DNA of 50,905 nucleotides, taken from contig JAUYKG010000031.1 of assembly GCA_030700105.1 (NCBI GenBank), positions 1 through 50,905 on the forward strand. Reading direction: 5' to 3'. The translations under genes and the position numbers were made by a program. Under the pieces are notes generated by a model, which was given only the letters and a program-made list of their open reading frames with translations, searched no databases and was not told where the DNA came from. This stretch comes from Candidatus Veblenbacteria bacterium (GTDB lineage: Bacteria > Patescibacteriota > Patescibacteriia > Veblenbacterales > UBA10138). This document shows, piece by piece, positions 3,154 through 27,260 of the stretch (positions are counted from its first letter, which is position 1; each line of letters opens with the position of its first letter).

Positions 3154-3199
3154 GAACTAGTATGTAGTAATATTGATTCAAAACTTAAAAGATTTCTCC

Positions 3200-4726: not shown

Positions 4727-4736
4727 GGGGAAATAC

Positions 4737-5744
4737 CTACTGCTGTGATTCTTTCCACGCTACATAATCCATATTGAGCGCTTCCAGTTTTTGCCGGTCA
4801 ATAAATACTGTTCCCGTACTTGGTCTGTGTAGACCCTCAAACGATACTGGGATTCTATCGGGCATATTACCCGGGTCATCTATATCTAGATAAATCGCCT
4901 CCGCAGGTTGAACATAACCGCCAAAATCCTCGCTCTGAAAATCATGAATTCCTCGGACTTCCTCGCCGTCAGACTTGATAAAAATACCGGCTTCCCGTAA
5001 AAGCGACTCGGTAAACAACCCATGTGTTGTGGTATTAAGTACCACGTCTTTCACGGGTGGTTTATTAAGGTTTCTCCTTGCATTTGAATACCGTTTAACA
5101 ATTCCTAATTCTTCAACGAGCTGATGCCCCAACCCCATGGCCAAACGGTGCACCGCTTCAGGAAATTGACCAAGAAATTTTTCAAAAGCTACCTTCTGGT
5201 TTTTCTGCCGTATTGGAGCTATTTTCATTTGTATATCAATGGGGAGCTTCTCAATATCTATCATGGGATTACCGGCACTGTCCTTTTTGCTTACTATCTT
5301 GTCCTTATCTTTTGATATGGCCCCATCAATGAGCGCTCTTAGTTCCGGCACCGCCAGCGCTTCTTCCAAGGTCGGCTCTTCGACATACAGCTTTATTATT
5401 GGAATCAAACCATAGAGATCAGGCTCCAGCACGTCGTATTGGATATCCTTCACCTGCCTGGTGCCATATTGTTCCCTGCTTAGCTGCGACTTTATACCAC
5501 TCTCCTTCGAAATAAGGTCTCCCGTCTGAAATGCCCTCGCGCTCTTATGGTCACTCACATAGGCCTTTAGCACTTCAGCCTCATCCATAACTTCTCCCTT
5601 TCGTTTGGCGTGCTCAATCCCCTCCGGACTTAACTCGCCCGAAGGAAGCCGTTCGGCGTGTCTCGTAATCATAAGACGATAGCGCGGTTTCTTCTCGGCT
5701 TCCGCAAAGCCGCCACCCATTTCAATCACATTTTCCATACTCAT
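4737..5744 (-). CDS. Histidine-phosphatase-superfamily (phosphoglycerate-mutase-like) protein, divergent
   Basis: RHG-type motif ITRHAERL, followed by SDHKSARAFQTG (compare SPxxRAxQTA) and a distal TTHGLF histidine. The track ORF starts at TTG 5762 and overlaps glyQS. The first ATG is 5744, 7 nt after the glyQS stop. The gene is low-GC. Confidence 0.5.
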   Translation of the reverse strand: MSMENVIEMGGGFAEAEKKPRYRLMITRHAERLPSGELSPEGIEHAKRKGEVMDEAEVLKAYVSDHKSARAFQTGDLISKESGIKSQLSREQYGTRQVKDIQYDVLEPDLYGLIPIIKLYVEEPTLEEALAVPELRALIDGAISKDKDKIVSKKDSAGNPMIDIEKLPIDIQMKIAPIRQKNQKVAFEKFLGQFPEAVHRLAMGLGHQLVEELGIVKRYSNARRNLNKPPVKDVVLNTTTHGLFTESLLREAGIFIKSDGEEVRGIHDFQSEDFGGYVQPAEAIYLDIDDPGNMPDRIPVSFEGLHRPSTGTVFIDRQKLEALNMDYVAWKESQQ

Positions 5745-15332: not shown

Positions 15333-16022
15333 TTACAAATTAAATAAACTTCGACTAACCCTCATCCCTCTGGTAAATTCATACAAGGCCGACCAAAACA
15401 AGCCGGAAGTGGCTGCAAACATAACCTCTTCAATCGGTACCGCGCCAAGCCATAACCCACTCAAGTAGTCGTGATTATAGTAGGTGACGATGAAATCAGG
15501 AAAGAGCCAATTGAATACAGAGAACAAACCCCAGTATAACGCTGCAAACCATAAACAGCTCCAGAGCATTTCTGGCACCAAGTCCTGGCGGTAAATTACC
15601 ACTACCACTGCACCTAGTAGCATAGCAATAACTAGCACGTGTAGGGGCTTTAGAGGAAGAAGGGTTAACCCACCAACATACGCACAGACAAAAACGGCTG
15701 CCGACAAGAAGTTTGGGTACGACCGAGCAATGAGCGGCCGTTTTGTTCGGCGGTCGTTCACGTATTCATAGAGCACGGCAGCCACACCCCCGATAAAAAA
15801 ACCTAACAGAACATCTTCTAATGATACGCCGTAACGACTAAGTAAATTACCAAGGGTGGGCGGATTCCAATAATAAGGCACGTACAGGGAGCCGGTTGAT
15901 CCAATGACAGCGCCGAGTAAACCGGCAAATACCATCTGAGACCGCAAATCAGCCCGCCGCCAAAATATAACCAACCAAGGAATAAGGGCTATGCCAACAC
16001 CAACTAGATAAGTGTAATGCAT
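15333..16022 (-). CDS. Polytopic membrane protein with two lycopene-cyclase-domain-like repeats
   Basis: 229 aa with about 7 TM segments. Two copies of the hPhEEhhF-type motif: VSLEDVLLGF and VPIEEVMFAA. The assignment rests on the motif only. Confidence 0.35.
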   Translation of the reverse strand: MHYTYLVGVGIALIPWLVIFWRRADLRSQMVFAGLLGAVIGSTGSLYVPYYWNPPTLGNLLSRYGVSLEDVLLGFFIGGVAAVLYEYVNDRRTKRPLIARSYPNFLSAAVFVCAYVGGLTLLPLKPLHVLVIAMLLGAVVVVIYRQDLVPEMLWSCLWFAALYWGLFSVFNWLFPDFIVTYYNHDYLSGLWLGAVPIEEVMFAATSGLFWSALYEFTRGMRVSRSLFNL

Positions 16023-16037
16023 AGTAAGTTTAGGCCG

Positions 16038-18890
16038 TCATTCAATGTTCAGACTTACCTTCACATCTCCTAAATTAAGTTCGTGTTCTTGAGACTTGTC
16101 AGAAAATTCAACCGCCTCGGCTATCACGGCACGTTTTACATCATCCAACTGCTTTTCCAGCGCACCCTTGAGAGGCTCAGGCGCCTGCACCACAAGTTTA
16201 ACCTTATCTTGTATGGTAAGCTTAAGCTCTTTACGCAGCGCGTTCACCTGCCGCGTGAATTCACGCACTAGTCCAAGTGCTTCAAGCTCACTGTTCATTG
16301 CAGTATCAAGCTTTGTTTCTATACCGTGAGTCACTTTTTGTACATTCACTTCGTCAGCTATAAGAGATGAGATATCTTCGCCAAACTTCACACTGGTAGT
16401 TAGATGCCCCAGCACCTGCCGTACCTTAATGCCAGCAGCTGCCCGCTGTGCCAGGGCTTTTTCAACTTCGTCCCTGGCCCTTGCCATATCCGCTAACAGC
16501 TGCTCGTCATCGGCGGTAACCGTACTCTGTGTTGGCCAATCCTCCAAATGCACCGATTTTTTGCTGCTATTAACTCGGCCATAAACCTCTTCCGCAATAA
16601 ACGGCGTGAACGGCGCCAGCAGCTTAGCCAAGGTGGATAGAACATAGCCCAGGGTTGCCACGGCGACCTGCTTATCACTGCCTTCTTCCTTGAACCTGTC
16701 CCGACTGCGCCTAACGTACCATGTGGAAAGTTCAGTCACGAAACCGGCCAGTTTACGCCCGGCCTCGGTAATTTCATAATTATCCAAGTGTTCAGTAACT
16801 TCGTTCGCCAACTGCTGCAGCAAACCCAACACCCACCTATCCATCACGTGGCTAACTTTGGGCGATCCAACCGGCGCCTTAGCCTCGCCTTTGTATAGCT
16901 CGTAGAACGTAACCACATTCATGAGTATGAGGAACGTCTTTTTCACCACCTGATCAACATCATTCGTATCAAAATTCTTTGGTTCGCCCGGCTGATTGGC
17001 CGTGTAGAAATGCCAACGTAAAGCGTCCGCCCCCCAAGTGTTCATAACCTCCCACGGGTCCACGATATTACCCTTTGACTTGCTCATCTTTTGGCCGTGC
17101 TTATCGTTTATGTGCCCCAGGCAAATCACGTTCTGGTACGGCGGCACCTCTTGTATCGCCCCCGCTTTTTTAAGCACACTGGCTACAGCTAAAAGCGTGT
17201 AGAACCAGCCGCGCGTTTGGTCTATGGCCTCGGAAATATAATCAGCCGGATAATGCTGCTTAAACTGTTCTTCACTGCCGGCAACATGCGGATACCCCCA
17301 CTGAGCAAACGGCATACTGCCGGAATCAAACCAACAATCAGCCACCTCTGGAACGCGCTCCATCTCGCCCTTGCCGTCGCACTTCTTGCACGGCCAAATT
17401 ACTTGATCAATAAAGGGCCGGTGCATATCAAAGTCAGCCCCGAACTTTTGCCCTGATTTCTCGGTTAATTCCGCCAGGCTCTCTACCACAATGTGATGGC
17501 GACAATCGGGGTTGGTACAGCGCCAAATAGGCAACGGCGTGCCCCAATACCGCTCGCGCGATATGGCCCAATCTTTCACCCCTTCAAGCCACTCACCAAA
17601 GCGGCCGCTCTTGATGTGCTGGGGAAGCCAATTGACCTTTTCGTTAGCGGCCTTAAGCTCTTCTCGCAGAGCTGACATTTCAATGAACCACGATGGCTTG
17701 GCATAGTACAAAAGCGGAGTTTCACACCGCCAGCAAAAAGGGTAGTCGTGAGTATAAGTCTCCTCACTAAAAAGCAGACCGCGTTCTTTCAAATCGGCTA
17801 CTATCCCCTCCTCCACTACTTTATCTTTCACAAATTTACCCTGCCACTGCGGCACGTCCTTGGTGAACAGACCGTCCTCATCCACAGTATGGTACTTGGG
17901 CAAACCAACTTGTGTTCCAAGATTAAAATCATCCTCGCCGTACATTACAGCAGTATGTACCACACCAGTACCTTCGGTAGTGGTTACAAAATCCGCCGCA
18001 TATACTCGGTATGATTTCTCGTTCTGCAAAGGCTTTATATCAAATAGAGGTTTGTACTCTAGGCCTACAAGTTTTTTACCTGGAAACTTATCTACCACTT
18101 CAGGTAATCCACTACGAAAAACCTCCTTTAATCGTGCTCGCGCTAAAATCAAAAACTCGTTCTTTACTTTTACCTTCTCGTACATCACATCCTCGCCCAC
18201 TGCTAAGGCCACATTTCCAGGCAAGGTCCATGGCGTGGTGGTCCAAGATAGAATCGATGTATCGGGGTCTGATGCTAATTTAAACTTAATGTAAACTGCC
18301 TTGTCAGGGATATTCTTATACCCCAACGCGACTTCGTGACTGGAAAGCGCCGTACCGCAACGCGGGCAGTGCGGCAAAACCTTGTAATCCTGGTACAGCA
18401 ATCCTGCTTTATCAGCCTGCTTGAAAATCCACCACAGGCTTTCTATATACGGCCGCTCATATGTGATGTACGGATGCTCCAAATCCAGCCAATAGCCCAT
18501 GCGCTGGGTAAGCTTTTCCCAGTCCTCTTTGTACTTCCACACGCCATCTTTACACTTGGCGTTAAATTCCGCCACCCCGTACTTTTCTATATCCGGCTTA
18601 CCCTTAAAGCCAAGTTCTTTTTCCACCTGCAGTTCCACCGGCAAACCCTGGGTATCCCAACCAGCCTTGCGTTCCACACGCCAGCCGCGCATGGTCTTGT
18701 AGCGCGGAATTAAGTCCTTAAATGCCCGTGCCAACACGTGGTGAATGCCGGGCTTACCGTTGGCAGTGGGAGGGCCTTCAAAAAAAACAAAATCCCCTTC
18801 CTTAGAGGGCTTGGCAAGCGATTTCTCGAATATCTTGTTCTCCTGCCAATATTTGAGCCACCTCTCTTCTAGCTCGGGAAACTTCACCAT
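16038..18890 (-). CDS. ileS: Isoleucine--tRNA ligase (type-2-like HIGH region)
   Basis: 950 aa. GPPTANGKPGIHHV (HIGH region), KMSKSKGN (KMSKS), a CP1 editing insertion, and no C-terminal zinc-finger extension visible. Confidence 0.92.
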   Translation of the reverse strand: MVKFPELEERWLKYWQENKIFEKSLAKPSKEGDFVFFEGPPTANGKPGIHHVLARAFKDLIPRYKTMRGWRVERKAGWDTQGLPVELQVEKELGFKGKPDIEKYGVAEFNAKCKDGVWKYKEDWEKLTQRMGYWLDLEHPYITYERPYIESLWWIFKQADKAGLLYQDYKVLPHCPRCGTALSSHEVALGYKNIPDKAVYIKFKLASDPDTSILSWTTTPWTLPGNVALAVGEDVMYEKVKVKNEFLILARARLKEVFRSGLPEVVDKFPGKKLVGLEYKPLFDIKPLQNEKSYRVYAADFVTTTEGTGVVHTAVMYGEDDFNLGTQVGLPKYHTVDEDGLFTKDVPQWQGKFVKDKVVEEGIVADLKERGLLFSEETYTHDYPFCWRCETPLLYYAKPSWFIEMSALREELKAANEKVNWLPQHIKSGRFGEWLEGVKDWAISRERYWGTPLPIWRCTNPDCRHHIVVESLAELTEKSGQKFGADFDMHRPFIDQVIWPCKKCDGKGEMERVPEVADCWFDSGSMPFAQWGYPHVAGSEEQFKQHYPADYISEAIDQTRGWFYTLLAVASVLKKAGAIQEVPPYQNVICLGHINDKHGQKMSKSKGNIVDPWEVMNTWGADALRWHFYTANQPGEPKNFDTNDVDQVVKKTFLILMNVVTFYELYKGEAKAPVGSPKVSHVMDRWVLGLLQQLANEVTEHLDNYEITEAGRKLAGFVTELSTWYVRRSRDRFKEEGSDKQVAVATLGYVLSTLAKLLAPFTPFIAEEVYGRVNSSKKSVHLEDWPTQSTVTADDEQLLADMARARDEVEKALAQRAAAGIKVRQVLGHLTTSVKFGEDISSLIADEVNVQKVTHGIETKLDTAMNSELEALGLVREFTRQVNALRKELKLTIQDKVKLVVQAPEPLKGALEKQLDDVKRAVIAEAVEFSDKSQEHELNLGDVKVSLNIE

Positions 18891-18900
18891 AGTGCTCTTT

Positions 18901-18929
18901 ATTTTACTGATTCTACGGCTCTACAGCAA
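18901..18929 (-). promoter_or_regulatory. Putative sigma70-type promoter of ileS
   Basis: On the minus strand: TTGCTG (18929-18924), a 17-nt spacer, then TAAAAT (18906-18901). The -10 element ends only 10 nt before ATG 18890, which implies a very short leader. Confidence 0.35.
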
Positions 18930-19006
18930 GCTTGCCCCGACGCGGCGGGGTTGACTATCCGGCAAAATAGTGTAAGGTATCAACAAAACAAAAAGGAATT
19001 TAAAAA

Positions 19007-19432
19007 ATGGATCCGCTTACTATACTAATCTGGTTTGCACTAATCCTCTTTGTCTGGCACATACGGAACCTCTATAAAATAACTTCGCCAGAGGCCAACC
19101 GCGCCAAAAGACTAACCGCCATTAGAGATTGGCTGGAAGAATGCAACGAGCCTCCTGCCCGAGTCAAGGATATAATCATACTTGCTCAGGGCAAGGGTAG
19201 TATCACGTATCTGCCGGAATTGAACGGCTCACTGCGGGAAAGCATAAAAGCCATCTACGAAATAGGCGGGATAGAATATGTACTGGGACTTACATACAAG
19301 GATGGCGAGCTTGAAAAGGTTAGGGAGAATGGCAAAGAGATAAACACAAATCTGCCTCCCAACCAGTACATCTTGGCACACAAGATATTAGAGATGTGCC
19401 AGCAGGTTTGGAATAATGCAACAAAAAATTAA
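19007..19432 (+). CDS. Hypothetical small membrane-anchored protein
   Basis: 141 aa. N-terminal TM (LTILIWFALILFVWHI). AAGGA lies 11 nt upstream of ATG 19007. AT-rich. No recognisable domain. Confidence 0.5.
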   Translation: MDPLTILIWFALILFVWHIRNLYKITSPEANRAKRLTAIRDWLEECNEPPARVKDIIILAQGKGSITYLPELNGSLRESIKAIYEIGGIEYVLGLTYKDGELEKVRENGKEINTNLPPNQYILAHKILEMCQQVWNNATKN

Positions 19433-19467
19433 AAATGCTCGAACGAACACACGTCGGGCATTTTTTC
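19424..19467. terminator. Bidirectional rho-independent terminator
   Basis: ATGCTCGA (19435-19442) pairs with TCGGGCAT (19454-19461), with one G-U. It is flanked by an A-run on the left and TTTTTT on the right, so either strand reads a hairpin followed by a U-run. Confidence 0.6.
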
Positions 19468-19472
19468 TATCC

Positions 19473-19506
19473 CCCATAGTACTATTCTATAGAATAGTAC
19501 TATGGG
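19473..19506. repeat. 34-bp perfect palindrome
   Basis: CCCATAGTACTATTCTA | TAGAATAGTACTATGGG. The two 17-nt arms are exact reverse complements with no spacer. It sits between convergent genes, next to the terminator. Confidence 0.9.
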
Positions 19507-19532
19507 AACACAGGCTGGATTCAAAAAATTTC

Positions 19533-19964
19533 TTATCTGGAGCCGGAGCTAAACTGCTCAATCGCTTTTACTACTTTGGAGTCCTGCTTGAGTGTTTCTA
19601 TGAACAGTACATGCTCCCTACTTATTCTCATCTCATCAGTCGGGCCATGCAACTCCGCTCCAAGTTTTACGAGTGCGAGATCCTGTGGCTGCTGCTCACC
19701 ACCTGCCTGCAGCGGGCCCGAAGTCTGCAGATAGTAAATGTGGCGAAGGACCACGGTGTCGGGGGTCAAGCGCGCCACATTGCCGAAGTAAACCTGGCCA
19801 TTGGAAAGGAATACCGCCTGCCAGCCTGGCATAGGCAGCCACCAATTGCGCTGGAAGCTAAACCACAACCCGCTCATTAATACCAACACGATTATTAAAA
19901 CTACCCAGGGCCAAGTACGAGTTGCCCGGGGTGCTGTATAACCAGTCTGAGAATTGAAATCCAT
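19533..19964 (-). CDS. Hypothetical single-pass membrane protein
   Basis: 143 aa with ATG at 19964. One TM (WPWVVLIIVLVLMSGLWF), then a soluble domain. No recognisable motif. Confidence 0.5.
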   Translation of the reverse strand: MDFNSQTGYTAPRATRTWPWVVLIIVLVLMSGLWFSFQRNWWLPMPGWQAVFLSNGQVYFGNVARLTPDTVVLRHIYYLQTSGPLQAGGEQQPQDLALVKLGAELHGPTDEMRISREHVLFIETLKQDSKVVKAIEQFSSGSR

Positions 19965-19991
19965 ACGTTGGTAAGTATAGCAGAGTCCAGC

Positions 19992-21710
19992 CTACATCTT
20001 CTCCACCACCCCTATACCCAGAATCCCCAAGCCTTCTTTAAGAACATCCGCTGCTACGCGCACCAAGTTAAGTCGTAAGCTGCGCAGCTTGGGCTCGGCT
20101 TTTAGAACCGGGACGGCGTGGTAAAAGGAATTCACCTGGGTGGCGAGTTCATACAGGTAAGCGGCCAACAGGTGCGGCCCCTGCTCCTCGGCCGCGCGGC
20201 GTAACTGCTCGGGGTAGCGCGTAAGTAGGCGCAGCATACTAAGGTCCGCCTCATTGGCGTGCGCCAAAACGGCGCTCCCCGCTGCGCGACCACTCACCTT
20301 GCCTGCTTTGCGCAGAATACTCTTTAACCTCACGTAACTGTACTGCAAATATGGTGCACTGTTCCCGTCCAGTGAGAGCATTTTCTCCCAATTAAAGGTG
20401 ATGTCAGTAAGCCGGTTCTGCGACAGGTCGTTATACTTAACCGCCCCCATGCCCACGGTTTCGGCTATACGGTCCTTAAGCTTGGCCGACAAGCTGGGAT
20501 TTTTGGCCTGCACCACCTTGCGCGCCAGCTCCCGTGCCTTGTCCAGCACTTCTCCCAAGGGGATAATCCTGCCCTCGCGCGTGGCCAGTTTCTGCTTGTC
20601 CTCTCCCAAGATCTGCCCGAACTTCACGTGCCGCAAGATTGTGTTACCGGCGTAGCCAGCCAGTTTGGCGACCGCGAACACCTGATCAAAGTGGAGTGAT
20701 TGCTCATTGCCCACCACATAGAGTATCTGTTGCGCTTTAAACCGCTTCACGCGGTAGCGAATAGCGGCCAGGTCGCGCGTGGCATAAAGCGAACCGCCGT
20801 CCGACTTCTGAATAAGACAAGGCGGCAGCCCCTCAGCCTGCAAGTGCACCACCACCGAACCGTCTTCGTTCCTCACCGCCAGCTTTTGACGAAGTAAATC
20901 GGTAACCACGCCCTTGAGCATCGGCTCGTAAAAGCTCTCTCCTAGTACGTGGGTGAAATTTACCCCCAAACGCCGGTAGAACACATTGAACTCTTTTACC
21001 GACTCGCGCTTAAACCAATTCCACAGTGCCCGGTTCTCGCGATTCCCCTTCTCTAGCCTTAGAAACTCTTGCTGTCCCTCGACTTCCAGCTCTGGTTCGC
21101 GCTTCATTTCTTCGTGGAACTTAACGTACAACCTAAGCATTTCACTAATCGGCTGGCGGCGCACCTGCTCGCGCTTGCCCCAGCGCTTGTAAGCGGCAAT
21201 AAGTTTGCCGAACTGTGTGCCCCAATCTCCCAGGTGGTTCAAGCGCAAAACCGGAGCGCCTAAAGCCTGAAACATATTGGCCAAGGCCGCACCGATGATG
21301 GTGGAGCGAATATGCCCCACGTGCATGGGCTTGGCAATGTTGGGGCTGGAAAATTCAACCAGCACGCGCCTGCCTCGTAGTATGGCGCGCGGTGCGGGTT
21401 TGGTGAGTTCAGCTAACTGCTTAAAGCACGTGGCGGGCTTAAGCCAAAAATTGATAAAGCCCGGGCCAGCCACCTCCACCCGCGCACAGGCTGAACGCAC
21501 CAGGCGTGAATCTGCTAGTTCGCGGCGTATAGCCTCAGCCGCCTCCTTGGCTGGCACGCCCCACTTGCTCGCTATCTTGAGGGCAGCGTTGCTGGTGAAA
21601 TCACCGTGCGCCATATCGCGCACCGGCTGTACCTCAACCTCACCCTCGCTTAGCTGGTAGTGCTTGTGAGCGGCTTTGGCAACTTCGGCTTGTAATTTTT
21701 GCGATAACAT
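19992..21710 (-). CDS. argS: Arginine--tRNA ligase
   Basis: 572 aa. HIGH region SSPNIAKPMHVGHIRS and the DALR anticodon-binding C-terminus ending VVEKM. Confidence 0.92.
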   Translation of the reverse strand: MLSQKLQAEVAKAAHKHYQLSEGEVEVQPVRDMAHGDFTSNAALKIASKWGVPAKEAAEAIRRELADSRLVRSACARVEVAGPGFINFWLKPATCFKQLAELTKPAPRAILRGRRVLVEFSSPNIAKPMHVGHIRSTIIGAALANMFQALGAPVLRLNHLGDWGTQFGKLIAAYKRWGKREQVRRQPISEMLRLYVKFHEEMKREPELEVEGQQEFLRLEKGNRENRALWNWFKRESVKEFNVFYRRLGVNFTHVLGESFYEPMLKGVVTDLLRQKLAVRNEDGSVVVHLQAEGLPPCLIQKSDGGSLYATRDLAAIRYRVKRFKAQQILYVVGNEQSLHFDQVFAVAKLAGYAGNTILRHVKFGQILGEDKQKLATREGRIIPLGEVLDKARELARKVVQAKNPSLSAKLKDRIAETVGMGAVKYNDLSQNRLTDITFNWEKMLSLDGNSAPYLQYSYVRLKSILRKAGKVSGRAAGSAVLAHANEADLSMLRLLTRYPEQLRRAAEEQGPHLLAAYLYELATQVNSFYHAVPVLKAEPKLRSLRLNLVRVAADVLKEGLGILGIGVVEKM

Positions 21711-22440: not shown

Positions 22441-23037
22441 TTATACCTGTTCTACCTGCTCGCCCGTGGTGGGCGAATCGTCAGCGACCGGTGTGTCCGG
22501 CCCTTGCGTGGGGCGTGGGGCGCCTTTCTTACGGCCTACTTGTAAGCTCAGCCGGCCGCCCTGGCGGGAAAAAGGAACTTCCACCACCACGTCCGCGCCG
22601 AGCGCGGCCACGAACTTACGAATGATGTCCTGCGCCATGTCCAGGTGCGCCCGCTCGCGGCCCCGCAGCACCATTTCCACTCGCACCTTGTGGCCCTCAT
22701 CCAAGAAGCGCGAGGCTGCCCTAAGGCGCACCGCGCGATCGTGCTCGCCGATCTTAAAGGAAATACGTACGCCCTTAATTTCAACCCGCTTAACTTTTGT
22801 TTTTTGCGCCCGCAGCAGCTTCTGCTGCTTGTACTGGAACTGGCCAAAGTCCATTATTTTGGCAATGGGCGGCTTAGCGGCGGGATTAACCTCCACTAAA
22901 TCAAAGCCCGCTTCTTGGGCCATCTTCAGTGCTTGCGAGGTTGGCACCACTCCGTGCGGTTTACCCGATTCGTCAATCAACTGTAGTTCGGGTATGCGGA
23001 TGAAGTGGTTTATCCGGTAACGGGGCTGTTCGCGCAA
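22441..23037 (-). CDS. infC: Translation initiation factor IF-3
   Basis: RINHFIRIPELQLIDESG N-domain, then KIMDFGQFQYKQQK linker and C-domain. The start codon at 23037 is TTG. There is an in-frame TAA 9 codons upstream and no ATG/GTG between. infC-rpmI-rplT gene order. Confidence 0.9.
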   Translation of the reverse strand: MREQPRYRINHFIRIPELQLIDESGKPHGVVPTSQALKMAQEAGFDLVEVNPAAKPPIAKIMDFGQFQYKQQKLLRAQKTKVKRVEIKGVRISFKIGEHDRAVRLRAASRFLDEGHKVRVEMVLRGRERAHLDMAQDIIRKFVAALGADVVVEVPFSRQGGRLSLQVGRKKGAPRPTQGPDTPVADDSPTTGEQVEQV

Positions 23038-23073: not shown

Positions 23074-23454
23074 TGGTGGAGGTGACGGGGTTCGCACCCG
23101 TGTCTAGTTCGTTCGCGTGCCGCCAGGTCCAAGCTCAGTGCCGCTTTATTACCGGAAATTACGTTAAGCGACACAAAATCGCAATTCCGGTTGTCTCTGG
23201 TTCTAGGTTGGTCCCCGAGACAAGAACCATACCGAGCTCGATGAATGGCGTCCCCGTAAGCTATCGAGCATTACCCGCGGGAACGGCCTTGGCAATTAAG
23301 CGAAGGCTGGAGCAAAGTTCAGCTGAGCAAAAGCCCCGCGAACTTTAGCTACAAATGATTTGGCATTTGTAGGGTTGGCGTGTTGGTAACGGAGAACACC
23401 GGCTCCGGCCTGCTAGCAAACACCCTTACGAACTATCGAAGTGTAAACACCCCC
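23074..23454 (-). ncRNA. ssrA: tmRNA (SsrA), one-piece
   Basis: The minus strand starts GGGGGTGTTTACACTTCGATAG and ends ACGGG-TGCGAAC-CCCGT-CACCTCC-ACCA. That gives a 7-bp acceptor stem with G3:U70, a T-arm, and an encoded CCA. An internal tag frame ends ...AQLNFAPAFA-TAA (TAA at 23298-23296). It lies directly downstream of smpB. Confidence 0.85.
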
Positions 23455-23499: not shown

Positions 23500-23946
23500 C
23501 TATCTTTTTAACGTGCGCCGAATTTCCCGTTCGGTCTCCCGCTTGCGCAAGCTTGCGCGCTTGTCGTAGCGGGTTTTACCCCTGGCCACACCAAGTTCAA
23601 CCTTAATAAACCTGTGCGAAGTATACAGAGAAAGCGGCACTACTGTCAAGCCGTGCTGTCTCAGCTTGCCACCCAGATACGAAAGTTCATGAGCGCCCAA
23701 GAGTAGTTTGCGATCGCGCTCCGGCTGGTACCCCACCTGCTCGCGCTGGGCCGGCGCGTACGGCGCCACGTGCATACCGGTAAGCCAGAGCTCTTGCCCT
23801 TTTGGTATTACAAAAGTACCCTGCAGGTTGGCGCGGCCACCTTTAATGGCTTTTACCTCCGGGCCGGTGAGCACCAAACCGGCCTCAAACTTCTCCAAAA
23901 TGGAGTAGTCGTGCCGGGCGCGACGATTCTCTGCTAATACTGGCAT
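23500..23946 (-). CDS. smpB: SsrA-binding protein SmpB
   Basis: 148 aa. ENRRARHDYSILEKFEAGLVLTGPEVKAIKGG is the canonical SmpB N-terminus. Confidence 0.93.
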   Translation of the reverse strand: MPVLAENRRARHDYSILEKFEAGLVLTGPEVKAIKGGRANLQGTFVIPKGQELWLTGMHVAPYAPAQREQVGYQPERDRKLLLGAHELSYLGGKLRQHGLTVVPLSLYTSHRFIKVELGVARGKTRYDKRASLRKRETEREIRRTLKR

Positions 23947-24012
23947 ACGCCTTGTATTGTAGAGGGTTTGGGCTTAAAAGGCACTCCTAGTTAGCTGTTC
24001 AGACCTCCCCTC

Positions 24013-24040
24013 TTGACAAATTCTGTGGTTGTGCTATGCT
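24013..24040 (+). promoter_or_regulatory. Putative sigma70-type promoter, island unit A
   Basis: TTGACA (24013-24018), a 16-nt spacer, then TATGCT (24035-24040). Confidence 0.5.
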
Positions 24041-24080
24041 TAGCTGTTTTACAAGTTTCGAACGTTATTTAACAAATAAA

Positions 24081-24185
24081 AAAGCCTGTGCGCGTGGTAG
24101 TTAGCTGAAGCTTACGCTAATTGCCTTTGGCATACCGCCAGGCTGAAATTCAAAACCCGACAATGCCAGTTGGGAAAAATAGGAG
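24081..24185 (+). promoter_or_regulatory. Structured 5' leader, copy 1 (candidate cis-regulatory pseudoknot RNA)
   Basis: P1 GCCTG/CAGGC (24084-88/24139-43). P2 GGTAGTTAGC/GCTAATTGCC (24096-105/24116-125). P3 CCCGAC/GTTGGG (24156-61/24169-74). The P3 loop ATGCCA pairs with TGGCAT (24128-33). SD AGGAG at 24181-85. It aligns with copy 2. Confidence 0.55.
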
Positions 24186-24192
24186 TAATAAA

Positions 24193-24615
24193 ATGAAAAA
24201 AGGATGGATAATAGCCATCATCATATTGGGTCTGATGACAGCATTTAATACCTTTGTCACGGTGGGTACGACTACAATGAGTATCCCTGGGGTGGATTGG
24301 GTAAAATTTATCCAAAATACATCGGATAGCAATGATTCTATCCATGCGGCTCAGATTGAAATGCTGAGAGATGAGATATATTATAATGATGATTTTTCCG
24401 GATCAAACATTGACTATATTGAATCAGAGCTGGAGGAGCTTGATACTACCACAATGAAGATTCAGCCAACGCCAGTTGCTGAAGTTGGAGAAGGGGAAGA
24501 AGAAACGGTGGAAGCGGAACAGCCCGAATCCACTGGAGAAGTTATTGTACCGGATTCGCAGGAAGTGAAAAATCCGGTAAAGAAAATCTCAAAGAGAAAA
24601 AGCATTTTTAAATAA
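24193..24615 (+). CDS. Orphan small single-pass membrane protein with acidic ectodomain and basic C-tail
   Basis: 140 aa from ATG 24193, with AGGAG 8 nt upstream. The track ORF begins at TTG 24121, inside the leader. TM WIIAIIILGLMTAFNTFVTV. Glu-rich stretch and a KKISKRKSIFK tail. AT-rich. Confidence 0.55.
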   Translation: MKKGWIIAIIILGLMTAFNTFVTVGTTTMSIPGVDWVKFIQNTSDSNDSIHAAQIEMLRDEIYYNDDFSGSNIDYIESELEELDTTTMKIQPTPVAEVGEGEEETVEAEQPESTGEVIVPDSQEVKNPVKKISKRKSIFK

Positions 24616-24625
24616 AGGAGTAACA

Positions 24626-25144
24626 ATGAAAACAATAATATTAACTTTAGCAGTTATCTGCTTCCTCTCCCTCTTTTCAGTGCCCACCTCAGCTCAGTAT
24701 TATTTCGCCGAAAATAAAGCTGAGCGTGATTCAATGGTTGCAATTCTACAGGCTGCGGTTGAAAATAATCAACCAATCACTGCGGAACTTCTGGAAATTG
24801 CACTTGCTGTTGCTGGTGACAACATCGTCGCCACAACCTTGAAAGCAGGGCACAATGAGTATGTCTCGATGCCCAGTAAATATCCGCACGGCTTAATGAG
24901 CAATGTGCTAACCGACCTCAACCAGTTAAAACAAAACCCAACAAATTCTACCGATAATTCTGGCCAATTGATCGATCTTGATAAAAAGGTTACTGAGGTA
25001 ACCGGAAGGGTTAATGACGTGGAGGAATTTATCGTAACTGATAATCCTACGCGCCGAACTGAGATCATGAGCGGAATGATATTCCGCTTCTCAGAGAGAC
25101 AGAAAAATGGCGTTGAGATTATAACGCCACCCTACAAAAAGTAA
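24626..25144 (+). CDS. Orphan secreted protein (Sec signal peptide)
   Basis: 172 aa. Signal peptide MKTIILTLAVICFLSLFSVPTSA|QYY. AAGGAG lies 7 nt upstream. It starts 10 nt after the previous stop, so it is in the same operon. Confidence 0.55.
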   Translation: MKTIILTLAVICFLSLFSVPTSAQYYFAENKAERDSMVAILQAAVENNQPITAELLEIALAVAGDNIVATTLKAGHNEYVSMPSKYPHGLMSNVLTDLNQLKQNPTNSTDNSGQLIDLDKKVTEVTGRVNDVEEFIVTDNPTRRTEIMSGMIFRFSERQKNGVEIITPPYKK

Positions 25145-25159
25145 TCCCACCGATTTTAA

Positions 25160-25197
25160 AAGGAGTACGTCGTCCTGATGTACTCCTTGTTTATTTT
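25160..25197 (+). terminator. Rho-independent terminator of island unit A
   Basis: AAGGAGTAC (25160-68) pairs with GTACTCCTT (25180-88). GTTTATTTT follows. Confidence 0.75.
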
Positions 25198-25216
25198 AGG
25201 GCTTAGCTTGAAGGGC

Positions 25217-25245
25217 TTGACAGATTATAAGCATTGTATTAAGAT
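25217..25245 (+). promoter_or_regulatory. Putative sigma70-type promoter, island unit B
   Basis: TTGACA (25217-25222), a 17-nt spacer, then TAAGAT (25240-25245). Its distance to the leader matches unit A (66 vs 71 nt from the -35 to the GCCT of P1). Confidence 0.5.
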
Positions 25246-25279
25246 AGTTTCTTAACTGAGTAAAAATAACAAAAAATAA

Positions 25280-25382
25280 AAAGCCTCGGCGTGGTAGTAG
25301 CTAACTGTTTAGCCCACTACCTTCGGCATACGCCACAGGCTAACATTAAAAACCCAGATATGCCTTCTGGGAGATAAAGGAG
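25280..25382 (+). promoter_or_regulatory. Structured 5' leader, copy 2 (candidate cis-regulatory pseudoknot RNA)
   Basis: P1 GCCT/AGGC (25283-86/25337-40). P2 GGTAGT+GCTAA / TTAGC+ACTACC (25293-304/25309-321). P3 CCCAGA/TCTGGG (25353-58/25366-71). The P3 loop TATGCC pairs with GGCATA (25325-30). SD AAGGAG at 25377-82. Confidence 0.55.
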
Positions 25383-25387
25383 CTATA

Positions 25388-25810
25388 ATGAGAAAGACAT
25401 TTTTGGGAATGGATAGGTTTGATTGGACAGGCATCGGCATAATTATGGTCATCTGTTTTGGATTTTGTGCCTATCAAATTTCAAAAGTCAGCGATCCGGT
25501 GGGCATCGCTCTTAAGAATCTTGGCTTTGATAAAAAAGACCCAGAATTATATATACCAAAGCAAGGTTCAGTTTTGTCCACTTTGTCGAGCGATATGTAC
25601 GAATCACAGCTTGAAAAAAAGCCTACTCAGTTAACCACATCTATCACTCGCGCTATCCAACCTCCCCCACCGCAGACTGTGGTTAATAAAGAAAAACATC
25701 TTACAACTTCCTATAGTCCCGCTATGACAAAAAATGACACTCTGTCGACCGTCAAAATTCTGACCGAAACTCCTAAAAAAACCCCCAAACGAAAATTGAT
25801 TTTGCAATAG
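25388..25810 (+). CDS. Orphan small single-pass membrane protein with basic C-tail
   Basis: 140 aa. TM GIGIIMVICFGFCAYQI. Ser/Thr/Pro-rich ectodomain. C-terminal KKTPKRKLILQ resembles the tail of the 24193 protein. AT-rich. Confidence 0.5.
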   Translation: MRKTFLGMDRFDWTGIGIIMVICFGFCAYQISKVSDPVGIALKNLGFDKKDPELYIPKQGSVLSTLSSDMYESQLEKKPTQLTTSITRAIQPPPPQTVVNKEKHLTTSYSPAMTKNDTLSTVKILTETPKKTPKRKLILQ

Positions 25811-25835
25811 CATCCACCCCTACCAAAAAATACCC

Positions 25836-25875
25836 ATCAGAGGACATCGCCCGGTGTACTCTGATTTTATTTTTA
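25836..25875 (+). terminator. Rho-independent terminator of island unit B
   Basis: ATCAGAG (25836-42) pairs with CTCTGAT (25859-65), with inner ACA/TGT pairs. TTTTATTTTT follows. Confidence 0.6.
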
Positions 25876-25881
25876 GGCAAC

Positions 25882-26129
25882 AAAAAACCAGCTAATGTTG
25901 CTGGTAAACACCAGGGCGACGGCCCCCAACCTCATCCATATAAAACAACTGGGCCCAAGCGCGCCTAAGGCCCACCTGGAGCCGGTACCATAACGTGCTA
26001 TCTCGGTGGGTGCGCCAGGAACAGGCACAGCGATGGTGAGCGCCGCCGCGCGACCGCGTGGGGTGGAATTGGTACATACGGTGCTTTGTTTTTATTTTTG
26101 GCGCCTCTTACCTTTTATCTGAGGCTAAC
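25882..26129 (-). ncRNA. Candidate small RNA (about 250 nt) of unknown class
   Basis: Bounded by a near-consensus promoter (26164-26136) and a minus-strand hairpin ACCAGC-aacatta-GCTGGT followed by TTTTTG (25905-25882). It has a GC-rich core in an AT-rich context. The only ORF (61 aa, 25892-26077) has no SD and an implausible Arg/His/Trp/Cys-rich composition. Confidence 0.4.
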
Positions 26130-26135
26130 ACATTC

Positions 26136-26164
26136 ATTATATCGCAAAATTCGCTTAAAGTCAA
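26136..26164 (-). promoter_or_regulatory. Near-consensus sigma70-type promoter of the candidate sRNA
   Basis: On the minus strand: TTGACT (26164-26159), a 17-nt spacer, then TATAAT (26141-26136). Confidence 0.6.
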
Positions 26165-26188
26165 CCTTAGGCGAAATAAAAACACCTC

Positions 26189-26217
26189 TTGAAGCCTAAA
26201 AACCGTTATGCTACAGT
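26189..26217 (+). promoter_or_regulatory. Putative promoter of tRNA-Asp
   Basis: TTGAAG (26189-94), a 17-nt spacer, then TACAGT (26212-17), about 38 nt before the tRNA. It is divergent from the sRNA promoter and 24 bp away from it. Confidence 0.4.
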
Positions 26218-26255
26218 GTTTAGGCTTTGCGTCTGTTCGCTATCCTAGCATGTGT

Positions 26256-26331
26256 GGACCCGTAGTGTAGCGGTTAACACGTCTCCCTGTCACGGAGAAG
26301 ATCGCCGGTTCGAATCCGGTCGGGTCCGCCA
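26256..26331 (+). tRNA. trnD: tRNA-Asp (anticodon GTC), CCA encoded
   Basis: The cloverleaf folded by hand. Acceptor GGACCCG/CGGGTCC. D-stem GTGT/ACAC. Anticodon stem TCTCC/GGAGA with loop CTGTCAC. T-stem GCCGG/CCGGT with loop TTCGAAT. Discriminator G, then CCA. Confidence 0.9.
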
Positions 26332-26358
26332 GAATAACATCTAAATCGCCCTCTCGTG

Positions 26359-27153
26359 CTAGGGGGCGGTTTTTGTTCGCGGCGCTTTCCACTGCACCGC
26401 CAAACCAACAGCTATAGCAAGGAGCGCGACGATAAAACCAGTACGAGCGCCCCAGATAAGCGTTTGCTCATCTACGCGCAAGAACTCCAGCGCGAACCTC
26501 AGGATGCCTGAGAGTATTAGATACAACGCGAACAGCCGTCCCGCGACCAGTTTTGCTCGCCAGCGCCAGAGCGCCCCGGCCAAGAGCACCAGCGCCAAAA
26601 ATTCGTACAGAAAAACGGGGTGAAAATATACTGCGTCCAGATAAGCCTGAGGACGGTACGCCCCGGCAATCGGAATACCCCAAGGCAAACTTGTCGGCAG
26701 ACCGAACAGCTCCTGGTTAAAATAATTCCCCCACCGCCCCACCGCCTGCCCCACCGCCAGCCCGGGTGCCAGGCTGTCCAGTAGTTCAAAAAGCGACCAG
26801 CGGTGCCGCCGTGCCCACCATACCAGCGCCACCGCACCACCAACCAATCCACCGTGCCAAGCCAAGCCGCCACGCCAGAGGTAAAATATTTCTCCTAGGT
26901 GATCGCGGAAGTACCACCACTCATACGCAAACACATCCACTAAGCGGGCGCCGAGCAATCCAGCTACTACCAGCCAAACCACCAAACCTTCCAGCTGGGC
27001 TACCGGCCACCCGAGCTCGCGCCAGCGTCGGCGAGTAAGTGCGTAGCCCGCAGCTACACCAAGCACAAGCAACAAGCCGTACCAGCGAATGGCAAAGGGG
27101 CCGAGGCTGAACAACACCGCGTCGGGTATGTGGGAATGGAGCAGTTCGAACAT
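26359..27153 (-). CDS. lgt: Prolipoprotein diacylglyceryl transferase
   Basis: Motifs FAIRWYGLLLVLG, GARLVDV, WRGGLAWHGGLVGG and GRWGNYFNQELFG are canonical Lgt. The track ORF starts at TTG 27219. ATG 27153 (MFELLHSHIP...) gives the usual N-terminus. Confidence 0.85.
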   Translation of the reverse strand: MFELLHSHIPDAVLFSLGPFAIRWYGLLLVLGVAAGYALTRRRWRELGWPVAQLEGLVVWLVVAGLLGARLVDVFAYEWWYFRDHLGEIFYLWRGGLAWHGGLVGGAVALVWWARRHRWSLFELLDSLAPGLAVGQAVGRWGNYFNQELFGLPTSLPWGIPIAGAYRPQAYLDAVYFHPVFLYEFLALVLLAGALWRWRAKLVAGRLFALYLILSGILRFALEFLRVDEQTLIWGARTGFIVALLAIAVGLAVQWKAPRTKTAP

Positions 27154-27260
27154 AGGAAAGTATGTAGTAGGTAGTATGTAGGGTAAAAATAAACTCCCCT
27201 GCTCGTCCAGAGCGAACAAGGCCCTATATACTTACCTGCCTACATTCGTATATACCTGCT

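What the first reader, a model, noticed from the sequence alone, without database searches (positions are those of the whole stretch)
24081..25387. Duplicated promoter-plus-leader cassette: a conserved pseudoknotted 5' UTR RNA in front of two unrelated small-protein operons
Two leaders of about 105 nt (24081-24185 and 25280-25382) align along their whole length, although the coding sequences behind them are unrelated. Both fold into the same architecture, and the sequence differences preserve pairing.
- P1: GCCTG/CAGGC versus GCCT/AGGC.
- P2: a 10-11 bp hairpin, GGTAGTTAGC/GCTAATTGCC versus GGTAGT-GCTAA/TTAGC-ACTACC.
- P3: CCCGAC/GTTGGG versus CCCAGA/TCTGGG, where three stem positions change together.
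- The 7-nt P3 loop (AATGCCA / TATGCCT) is complementary to an invariant GGCAT inside the P1 junction (24129-33 / 25325-29). This gives an H-type pseudoknot that ends 7-10 nt before the Shine-Dalgarno.

Each copy also sits at the same distance (66-71 nt) from a TTGACA -35 box. I cannot match this layout to any riboswitch or leader family I know. It looks like a dedicated cis-regulatory RNA (ligand-, protein- or sRNA-responsive) controlling exported orphan proteins.
Basis: seen in the sequence. Interest (0 to 1): 0.72.

Follow-up and report, generated by a model that had tools for sequence, protein, structure and literature searches.

The report
Structured mRNA leader shared by gene cassettes
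Two small gene cassettes in a groundwater Patescibacteria contig start with the same ~97-nt folded mRNA leader, and a third copy in another metagenome shows the fold is real and conserved, but its function is unknown and nothing shows it is a riboswitch.

Summary
Leaders at 24080-24176 and 25279-25373 are homologous: a covariance model built from copy A alone finds copy B at E=7e-12, and there is no third copy in the window. The coding sequences behind them show no detectable similarity. No Rfam family matches.

A third, independent copy turned up through a distant homolog of the second cassette gene. It lies in ENA groundwater contigs (L142:35-133, identical to L145:371-469) and scores 47 bits, E=8e-12. 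It sits in the orthologous cassette next to smpB.

Across the three distinct sequences, 97.9% of pair cells are standard pairs. Nine pairs change on both sides, three each in P1, P2 and P3, and 0 of 500 shuffles reach this. The tip of P2 is rewritten in every copy yet always forms a hairpin. G-U pairs in copy A, together with the promoter and Shine-Dalgarno (SD) context, point to the plus strand.

The bulge-loop pseudoknot (GGCAU/AUGCC) is compatible in all three copies, with one U-A to U-G change and 7 bp in L142, but it shows no covariation.

There is no terminator, no anti-SD sequence and no conserved alternative fold. The structure always ends 6 nt before a free SD. I read it as a genuine lineage-restricted cis-acting 5' UTR module acting on translation or mRNA stability. 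The riboswitch reading is unsupported.

The parts
24013..24040 (+). Promoter A: TTGACA (24013-24018), 16-nt spacer, TATGCT (24035-24040). Predicted transcription start near 24047.
   Evidence: Consensus scan, 10 of 12 matches. The core cctcTTGACAAAyTCTGTGGTTrTGCTAT is almost identical in the orthologous cassette L145:301-333, and the -35 context recurs in L004.
24047..24079 (+). AU-rich single-stranded 5' tail of leader A. Its 3' part, UAACAAAUAAAAA (24070-24082), is conserved in all three copies.
   Evidence: Alignments (family D2, 90, 91); unpaired in the folds.
24080..24176 (+). Leader copy A. P1 = 24083-24088 and 24090-24095 paired with 24134-24144. P2 = 24096-24105 paired with 24116-24125. 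8-nt bulge UUUGGCAU = 24126-24133. Linker = 24145-24155. P3 = 24156-24161 paired with 24169-24174. P3 loop AAUGCCA = 24162-24168.
   Evidence: MFE fold, z -2.75; CM matches; pair counts.
24129..24133 (+). GGCAU in the bulge of copy A, proposed pseudoknot partner of AUGCC at 24163-24167 (6 bp together with U24128-A24168).
   Evidence: Duplex energy -7.4 kcal/mol. It is the best complement of the loop among all unpaired segments. Compatible in 3 of 3 sequences, without covariation.
24181..24195 (+). SD AGGAG (24181-24185), 6 nt after P3, and start codon ATG (24193-24195) of p140a.
   Evidence: Sequence. Unpaired in the short leader folds; in the longer copy A transcript the MFE pairs the SD region with the 5' tail, and this pairing is absent in copy B. 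The same 6-nt spacing occurs in copy B and in L142.
24193..24615 (+). p140a: 140-aa ORFan with an N-terminal membrane anchor, an acidic middle and the C-terminus ...KRKSIFK.
   Evidence: ORF list. No Pfam or PHROG family. No homolog among 5.8 billion proteins. The positional ortholog p107 in L142 is 24% identical and ends ...NSIFK.
24626..25144 (+). p172: 172-aa secreted ORFan (signal peptide ending ...TSAQ) with a conserved GH(K/N)EYVSMP motif.
   Evidence: Homologs: P0002 70%, P0005 43%, L004 p173 26%. The AlphaFold model has pLDDT 50 and is not usable.
25160..25198 (+). Intrinsic terminator of cassette A (13-bp hairpin plus U-tract).
   Evidence: Terminator scan. 82% identical to the terminator after p168 in L142/L143.
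25217..25245 (+). Promoter B: TTGACA (25217-25222), 17-nt spacer, TAAGAT (25240-25245). Predicted transcription start near 25252.
   Evidence: Consensus scan, 10 of 12 matches.
25279..25373 (+). Leader copy B. P1 = 25282-25286 and 25288-25292 paired with 25330-25334 and 25337-25341. P2 = 25293-25298 and 25300-25304 paired with 25309-25313 and 25316-25321. Bulge UUCGGCAU = 25322-25329. Linker = 25342-25352. P3 = 25353-25358 paired with 25366-25371. P3 loop UAUGCCU = 25359-25365.
   Evidence: MFE fold, z -2.92; CM matches; pair counts.
25378..25390 (+). SD AGGAG (25378-25382), 6 nt after P3, and start codon ATG (25388-25390) of p140b.
   Evidence: Sequence; unpaired in the folds.
25388..25810 (+). 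p140b: 140-aa ORFan with a membrane anchor, a low-complexity region and the C-terminus ...KRKLILQ.
   Evidence: No homolog among 5.8 billion proteins.
25838..25874 (+). Terminator-like hairpin (25838-25863) plus U-tract at the end of cassette B. Its 3' half resembles terminator A.
   Evidence: Sequence; repeat family D5, 72% identity.

Best explanation
This is a genuine structured 5' untranslated leader of about 97 nt, read on the plus strand. It forms part of a reusable promoter-leader-RBS-terminator frame around small cassettes. The cassettes encode fast-evolving exported or membrane-anchored ORFan proteins and sit in a hypervariable spot between smpB and tRNA-Asp in a narrow lineage of groundwater Patescibacteria.

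The RNA folds into a long bulged hairpin (P1-P2) and a short hairpin (P3). The invariant 8-nt bulge (UUYGGCAU) probably pairs with the P3 loop (RUGCC), giving a compact knot. That knot ends exactly 6 nt upstream of an A-rich, unpaired SD.

There is no terminator, no anti-SD and no conserved alternative fold. The most likely action is therefore in cis on translation initiation and/or mRNA lifetime. The leader would be a folded platform at the 5' edge of the ribosome-binding site, either constitutive or an operator for a trans-acting factor. It does not look like a two-state metabolite switch.

Shown: homology of three copies, the conserved P1/P2/P3 pairing, the strand, and the fixed position relative to promoter and SD. 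Inferred: the pseudoknot, any regulatory effect and the nature of any partner.
For: - **Three homologous copies.** Window A and B, and L142:35-133, identical to L145:371-469, from independent ENA groundwater assemblies (47.4 bits, E=8e-12 with a model that had not seen it).
- **Alignment-free agreement.** Each of the three sequences folds on its own into the same architecture, with z-scores of -2.75, -2.92 and -3.56.
- **Pair counts on three distinct sequences.** 97.9% of cells are paired and 9 pairs change on both sides (3 each in P1, P2, P3). 0 of 500 shuffles reach this. Slid controls give 29-41% paired and no two-sided change.
- **Substitution simulation, A versus B.** P=2.5e-5 with random positions and 1.4e-3 with the same positions. 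For the ungapped P3 alone the values are 0.014 and 0.066.
- **Strand.** The upper P2 has a different sequence in every copy yet always pairs. Copy A has three G-U pairs, and its minus strand does not adopt the fold (z -0.60).
- **Fixed context in all copies.** TTGACA lies 65-70 nt before P1, P3 ends 6 nt before the SD, and the SD is single-stranded in the short leader folds of all three copies; one long-range pairing of the SD region appears only in the extended copy A fold.
- **Non-coding parts outlast the genes.** Between the window and L142/L145 the promoter segment is 76% identical (its core almost unchanged), the leader 71%, the RBS 79% and the terminator 82%. The coding sequences are 51-61% identical at the nucleotide level and 24-43% at the protein level.
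- **Pseudoknot.** In every copy the bulge is the loop's best complement, at 6, 5 and 7 bp.
Against: - Only three distinct sequences exist, two of them from one contig, so no R-scape-grade statistic is possible. The alignment used for counting was fitted to the structure. An unguided MAFFT plus RNAalifold run recovers P1 and P3 but not P2.
- The pseudoknot has no covariation.
- No feature links the fold to an on/off decision, so a regulatory role is an inference from position and conservation alone.
- The 36-nt single-stranded tail before P1 argues against a classical 5'-terminal stabiliser hairpin, unless the real transcription start is closer than predicted.
- In relative L004 the orthologous operon carries a different, much larger leader. 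The element is therefore dispensable or replaceable for this operon type.
Confidence: 0.55

Rival explanations
1. It is a small-molecule or ion riboswitch. The conserved bulge, the P3 loop and the A-rich linker would form a ligand pocket. Ligand-stabilised docking of the pseudoknot 6 nt from the SD would modulate 30S binding by steric hindrance.
For: - The layout resembles an aptamer: invariant junction and loop nucleotides, covarying stems, and a variable-length hairpin tip.
- Pseudoknot complementarity is present in all copies.
- The position next to the RBS is fixed.
- It is not a known class.
Against: - There is no expression platform. The SD is unpaired in the short leader folds, there is no plus-strand terminator, and no alternative pairing is conserved.
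- The downstream genes are ORFan exported proteins that give no metabolic clue.
- Distribution is extremely narrow: no match in the species-representative genomes, JGI metagenome contigs or IMG/VR at the pattern level. Those patterns were stricter than the true third copy.
Confidence: 0.12
2. There is no RNA-level function. The similarity would be a duplicated or gene-converted promoter-leader DNA module, and the palindromes would act at the DNA level, for example as operator sites or recombination sites that shuffle cassettes.
For: - The locus is a hypervariable cassette hotspot: about 0.58 kb in L001 and L003 versus 5.5-7.2 kb in L004 and L002.
- Promoter and terminator are also conserved across cassettes and genomes.
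- GGCAT and ATGCC are an inverted repeat in DNA as well.
Against: - Nine pairs change on both sides while keeping complementarity, and the P2 tip is rewritten in each copy. A protein-bound DNA half-site would conserve sequence, not pairing.
- G-U pairs in copy A make the structure strand-specific.
- Similarity stops at the leader instead of decaying evenly.
- No recombinase gene or target-site duplication lies nearby.
Confidence: 0.1
3. The element works on the minus strand. Each hairpin is preceded on the plus strand by an A-run, so on the minus strand it reads as hairpin plus U-run. This would be a tandem terminator or insulator against antisense transcription running towards smpB.
For: - The terminator scan lists both P3 hairpins on the minus strand.
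- P1/P2 is followed by a U-rich tract on the minus strand in all three copies.
- The minus strands of copy B and of L142 fold as well as their plus strands.
Against: - The minus strand of copy A does not form the shared fold (z -0.60).
- In L142 the P3 complement is followed by AUUUCAAAG, which is not a U-run.
- No minus-strand transcription unit reads into either copy.
- This reading does not explain the invariant bulge and loop or the fixed spacing to the SD.
Confidence: 0.05
4. It is a put-like or EAR-like cis-acting RNA that modifies RNA polymerase (processive antitermination), present once behind each cassette promoter.
For: Each copy is a two-hairpin RNA a few tens of nucleotides downstream of a strong promoter, duplicated behind two promoters of one island. 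This layout is reminiscent of HK022 putL/putR, a comparison drawn from my own knowledge.
Against: No terminator lies between the leader and its genes. The cassettes are only 0.5-1 kb long and end in their own strong terminators. No homology test against put RNA could be run.
Confidence: 0.04

Closest known systems
Pseudoknotted translational riboswitch aptamers next to the RBS (SAM-II RF00521, preQ1-II RF01054, and similar)
   Same: A small folded 5' UTR domain with a loop-to-single-strand pseudoknot, covarying stems and invariant junction nucleotides, placed immediately upstream of the start site.
   Different: In those classes the SD is part of the pseudoknot. Here the SD is always free and lies 6 nt downstream. 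There is no sequence or CM match. There is no metabolic gene association, and only three sequences are known.
Protein-bound pseudoknot operators of ribosomal-protein mRNAs (E. coli rpsO/S15 'entrapment', L20 leader)
   Same: A pseudoknot close to an accessible SD that can control initiation without sequestering the SD. This is a precedent, from my own knowledge, for how a fold like this one could regulate.
   Different: No Rfam match to the S15 or L20 leaders. The downstream genes are exported ORFans, not RNA-binding proteins, and no candidate binding protein is identified.
5' UTR mRNA stabilisers such as the E. coli ompA leader
   Same: A long leader with two hairpins and single-stranded A/U-rich segments in front of genes for exported proteins. 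It could act constitutively on mRNA half-life or translation.
   Different: Stabiliser hairpins sit at the very 5' end. Here about 36 nt of unpaired RNA are predicted to precede P1. The invariant bulge and loop suggest a specific tertiary contact or partner.
Phage HK022 putL/putR RNAs
   Same: Two copies of a two-stem-loop RNA, each just downstream of a promoter in the same element and acting in cis.
   Different: No downstream terminators need reading through. No phage genes are nearby, and neither the island nor p172 has a phage or viral match. Homology was not testable.

Membership tests
Any Rfam 15 family (riboswitches, leaders, ribozymes, sRNAs) | A covariance-model score at or near the family's gathering threshold | tested here: not met
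   A gathering-threshold scan of the whole window finds only tmRNA and tRNA. A permissive scan of 23900-25900 (E up to 10) gives no hit over either leader.
Riboswitch (generic) | Conserved aptamer with covarying helices and invariant junction nucleotides | tested here: met
   Nine two-sided changes, 97.9% of cells paired, and invariant UUYGGCAUAC and UGCC.
Riboswitch (generic) | Expression platform: a terminator/antiterminator or SD-sequestering alternative helix | tested here: not met
   No plus-strand terminator follows the leader. The SD is unpaired in the short leader folds of all three copies, and the only long-range SD pairing, seen in the extended copy A fold, is absent in B.
Riboswitch (generic) | Specific ligand binding | not testable with these tools
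   This needs in-line probing or ITC. The downstream genes give no ligand hint.
Pseudoknot (bulge to hairpin-loop) | Complementarity between the two single-stranded segments in every member | tested here: met
   6, 5 and 7 contiguous pairs. In every copy this is the best partner of the loop. Per-sequence chance is 0.005-0.04.
Pseudoknot (bulge to hairpin-loop) | Covariation of the pseudoknot pairs | tested here: inconclusive
   Four pairs are invariant, one changes U-A to U-G, and the flanking pair is broken in copy B. No two-sided change occurs.
Intrinsic terminator / transcription attenuator on the plus strand | G+C-rich hairpin followed by a U-tract before the coding sequence | tested here: not met
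   P3 is followed by AAAAAUAGGAG, AGAUAAAGGAG or AAAAAUGGAG. The scan finds no plus-strand terminator in the leaders.
RNA thermometer (ROSE / fourU type) | SD or start codon paired in a weak helix | tested here: not met
   The SD and AUG are unpaired in the short leader folds of all three copies; the one SD pairing seen in the extended copy A fold is not conserved in B.
Dispersed repeat (MITE/REP-like) or integron attC | Many dispersed copies in varied contexts; for attC, a position 3' of promoterless cassettes with R''/R' core sites | tested here: not met
   There are only two copies in 50.9 kb and none in 1.4 Mb of relatives' loci. Every copy lies between its own promoter and SD, and there is no GTTRRRY core. 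The rest of the genome could not be searched.

The most novel reading that the evidence does not exclude
This would be a new sensor RNA class private to Patescibacteria: a pseudoknotted aptamer or protein operator that switches translation of hypervariable surface or secreted-protein cassettes in response to a host- or environment-derived signal. If so, it would give a first handle on how these episymbionts regulate their fast-evolving cell-surface repertoire.
Probability: 0.12. Interest if true: 0.7.

Novelty: new member of a known kind. Interest (0 to 1): 0.4.

Why it matters
Very little is known about gene regulation in CPR/Patescibacteria. Their strain-specific secreted and membrane ORFans are prime candidates for host interaction.

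In this locus the promoter, the folded leader, the RBS spacing and the terminator are kept, while the proteins between them diverge to 24-43% identity or are swapped altogether. This suggests a conserved expression frame for a rapidly changing surface repertoire.

If the leader proves to be a sensor or operator, it would be a lineage-specific regulatory RNA that can be tested in cell-free translation. If it is only a constitutive translation or stability element, it is an ordinary, though previously uncatalogued, structured leader.

Tried and rejected
**Collection scans by exact pattern**
- IMG/VR gave 0 hits and the species-representative genomes gave 0 hits.
- JGI metagenome contigs gave 21 hits. 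All were chance: mostly within apparently coding sequence, with no 5' domain and P3 mostly unpaired.
- A 5'-domain pattern in IMG/VR gave 40 hits, all unrelated phage coding sequences.
- These patterns would not have matched the real third copy (AUCCCC, GUGCC). They therefore bound only near-identical copies.

**Model searches**
- nhmmer and CM searches of 1.4 Mb around smpB in 80 relatives found nothing.

**Mobile-element searches**
- BLAST of the island against phage and plasmid collections found no match.
- A protein-guided scan of IMG/VR with the p172 family found none.

**Protein searches**
- p140a and p140b have no homologs.
- p172 has only a soil-catalogue fragment without DNA.
- Exact look-ups of the window's own proteins are not on record.
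- Pfam and PHROGs gave nothing for the cassette proteins.
- The AlphaFold model of p172 from 5 sequences has pLDDT 50, so no fold search was run.

**Ideas rejected**
- A minus-strand terminator or antisense-RNA reading.
- An att-type repeat of tRNA-Asp or tmRNA in the window island.
- Homology between the window leader and the L004 leaders: only the promoter is shared.
- A leader peptide: no conserved upstream ORF was seen on reading the three leader sequences.

**Literature**
- One search found no description of a comparable Patescibacteria motif.
Full report
**Locus.** The window is a Patescibacteria (CPR) contig. The closest SmpB proteins (72-78% identical) are in MAGs L001-L004, one titled "uncultured Patescibacteria group bacterium" and three titled Gammaproteobacteria; the more distant SmpB relatives are overwhelmingly Patescibacteria/CPR MAGs. 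Nearly all genes lie on the minus strand.

The finding sits in a 41-43% G+C stretch within a genome that is mostly 51-60% G+C. The order of features is:
- infC (22441-23037, minus strand)
- tmRNA (23074-23454, minus strand)
- smpB (23500-23946, minus strand)
- about 1.9 kb on the plus strand, which holds the finding
- a small conserved minus-strand gene
- tRNA-Asp (26256-26331)
- lgt (26359-27219, minus strand)

Comparison with relatives shows that the smpB to tRNA-Asp interval is a variable hotspot. It measures about 0.58 kb in L001 and L003, 5.5 kb in L004 and 7.2 kb in L002, with different contents in each. L001 aligns with the window at 23873-23937 and again at 25925-26352. The segment from about 23960 to 25880 is therefore an insertion relative to L001 and L003.

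**Anatomy of the insertion.** It consists of exactly two transcription units.
- Unit A: TTGACA-16-TATGCT promoter (24013-24040), leader, SD AGGAG (24181-24185), p140a (24193-24615), p172 (24626-25144), and a strong intrinsic terminator (25160-25198).
- Unit B: TTGACA-17-TAAGAT promoter (25217-25245), leader, SD (25378-25382), p140b (25388-25810), and a terminator-like hairpin with a U-tract (25838-25874).

p140a and p140b have N-terminal membrane anchors, and p172 has a cleavable signal peptide. None matches Pfam or PHROGs.

**Check of the observation.** The two leaders are homologous over about 100 nt (nhmmer E of 1e-27 for each copy). A covariance model made from copy A alone recovers copy B at 52 bits, E=7e-12, and nothing else in the window scores better than E of about 1.

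Similarity starts about 14 nt before P1 and ends just past the start codon. The promoter spacer and the coding sequences are not similar. This rules out a simple recent segmental duplication.

Both copies fold alone into the same architecture:
- P1, in two segments
- P2
- an 8-nt 3'-side bulge, UUYGGCAU
- an 11-nt A-rich linker
- P3, 6 bp with a 7-nt loop containing AUGCC

The z-scores are -2.75 and -2.92. No Rfam family matches, even at E up to 10.

**Search for homologs.** Exact-pattern scans of IMG/VR, of one genome per species, and of JGI metagenome contigs returned nothing real. CM and nhmmer searches of 1.4 Mb around smpB in 80 relatives were also negative.

The route that worked went through proteins. 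A full HMMER scan with p172 gave P0005 (43% identical). Its contigs and those of its neighbours could be fetched. They are L142 (1042 nt), L145 (1193 nt), L143 and L144, all short ENA contigs; the record name of L144 identifies it as a groundwater metagenome.

L145 contains the 5' end of smpB, a promoter almost identical to promoter A (cctcTTGACAAACTCTGTGGTTATGCTATCAT), the leader, a 107-aa ortholog of p140a (24% identical, same ...SIFK end) and the start of the p172 ortholog. L142 and L143 end with a terminator 82% identical to terminator A.

L142:35-133 (identical to L145:371-469) matches the two-copy model at 47.4 bits, E=8e-12. It also folds on its own into the same architecture, with z -3.56. 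My scan patterns would not have matched this true homolog, so the negative scans say little about more divergent copies.

**Structure evidence.** The counts below come from the three distinct sequences aligned to the model.
- 97.9% of pair cells are standard pairs.
- Nine pairs change on both sides, three each in P1, P2 and P3. Examples are U-A to C-G in P1, U-G / U-A / C-G at one P2 position, and G-U / A-U / C-G in P3.
- None of 500 column shuffles reaches the observed values.
- Sliding the 3' partners by 1-3 columns gives 29-41% pairing and no two-sided change.

The tip of P2 differs in each copy: UAGC/GCUA with a 10-nt loop, GCUAA/UUAGC with a 4-nt loop, and CGCUGA/UCAGCG with a 5-nt loop. 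It always forms a hairpin.

A simulation that mutates copy A at random as often as copy B differs from it retains as many pairs in only 2.5e-5 of trials. With the same positions and random bases the fraction is 1.4e-3. For the ungapped P3 alone the values are 0.014 and 0.066.

Caveats: there are three sequences, two of them from one contig, and the alignment was fitted to the structure. An unguided MAFFT plus RNAalifold run recovers P1 and P3 but misaligns P2.

**Strand.** Copy A uses three G-U pairs, and its reverse complement does not form the shared fold (z -0.60). Promoters, SD sequences and genes are all on the plus strand.

The A-runs before P1 and P3 make terminator-like hairpins on the minus strand. 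However, in L142 the P3 complement lacks a U-run.

**Pseudoknot.** The bulge GGCAU and the loop AUGCC can pair in A (6 bp, -7.4 kcal/mol) and in B (5 bp, -6.9 kcal/mol). In L142 the loop is AAGUGCCAA, which gives 7 bp (UUGGCAU/GUGCCAA) with one U-A to U-G change.

In each sequence the bulge is the loop's best partner among all unpaired segments, with a per-sequence chance of 0.005-0.04. These two segments are also the most conserved unpaired parts of the leader. There is no two-sided change, so the pseudoknot is plausible but unproven.

**Mechanism.** P3 ends 6 nt before the SD in all three versions. The SD and start codon are unpaired in the short leader folds. No plus-strand terminator follows. 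The only long-range pairing that touches the SD, seen in the extended fold of copy A, is absent in copy B.

The leader therefore lacks a recognisable expression platform, and a classical two-state riboswitch, attenuator or thermometer is not supported. What is conserved is a compact fold at a fixed distance from both the promoter (65-70 nt) and the ribosome-binding site.

The non-coding frame is also better conserved than the proteins. The promoter segment is 76% identical (its core almost unchanged), the leader 71%, the RBS 79% and the terminator 82%, against 24% and 43% protein identity.

I conclude that the most likely role is a cis-acting 5' UTR module affecting translation initiation and/or mRNA stability. 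It may be an operator for a trans-acting factor. The S15-type 'entrapment' pseudoknot is a precedent for control without SD sequestration (my own knowledge). A ligand-sensing aptamer that acts by steric hindrance remains possible but unsupported.

In L004 the orthologous operon (p129 plus p173) keeps the promoter but carries an unrelated and very stable 250-nt leader. The element is therefore replaceable.

**Novelty and score.** The motif is not in Rfam, and one literature search found no description of it. It is a new structured-leader motif of a familiar kind, known so far from three sequences in a narrow groundwater lineage. It is solid as a structure and open as to function. Interest is 0.4.

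Noticed in passing
window 25892-26077 (minus strand), with promoter TTGACT-17-TATAAT at 26164-26136 and terminator 25905-25887: A small unannotated gene of about 61 aa (…HHRCACSWRTHRDSTLWYRLQVGLRRAWAQLFYMDEV…) is conserved in L001 (69% nt identity over 443 nt) and in L003. Window-versus-L001 differences fall 8/2/22 on codon positions 1/2/3, so it is protein-coding and not an sRNA. It has no Pfam or Rfam match and no obvious SD.
   Followed up: partly
window 23947-26255; L001:1091-1672, L003:9416-10001, L002:2796-10001, L004:4533-10001: The smpB to tRNA-Asp interval is a hypervariable cassette hotspot in this lineage, ranging from 0.58 kb to 7.2 kb with different genes in each genome. L002 carries a full tRNA-Asp plus a second 44-nt copy of its 3' end, as expected for an element integrated at the tRNA.
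   Followed up: partly
L004:6047-6300 (minus strand of the locus): The p129/p173 operon of relative L004 is the positional and partial sequence ortholog of cassette A and has the same cctcTTGACAAAT promoter. It carries a different leader of about 250 nt that is exceptionally stable (-108.9 kcal/mol, z -6.4) and contains a CUCCUCC stretch that could pair with its SD. This may be a separate structured leader worth its own analysis.
   Followed up: partly
window 24193-25144 versus L142/L145: Regulatory DNA outlasts coding DNA. Promoter, leader, RBS and terminator are 71-82% identical, whereas p140a/p107 are 24% and p172/p168 are 43% identical at the protein level. This is consistent with rapid evolution of the exported proteins.
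   Followed up: yes
window 24593-24615, 25788-25810; L004:5660-5683; L142:448-471: The first protein of every cassette ends in a similar basic tail (…KRKSIFK, …KRKLILQ, …KRKRDTIF, …KINSIFK) after a membrane anchor and a low-complexity region. This hints at a shared, very divergent family or a common C-terminal signal. BLASTP is not significant.
   Followed up: partly
window 3000-5000 and 16000-20000: Two further stretches of lower G+C (43-49%) within the mostly 51-60% G+C contig. The second includes a 950-aa ORF (16038-18890, minus strand) and two plus-strand ORFs (19007-19880). They were not examined.
   Followed up: no
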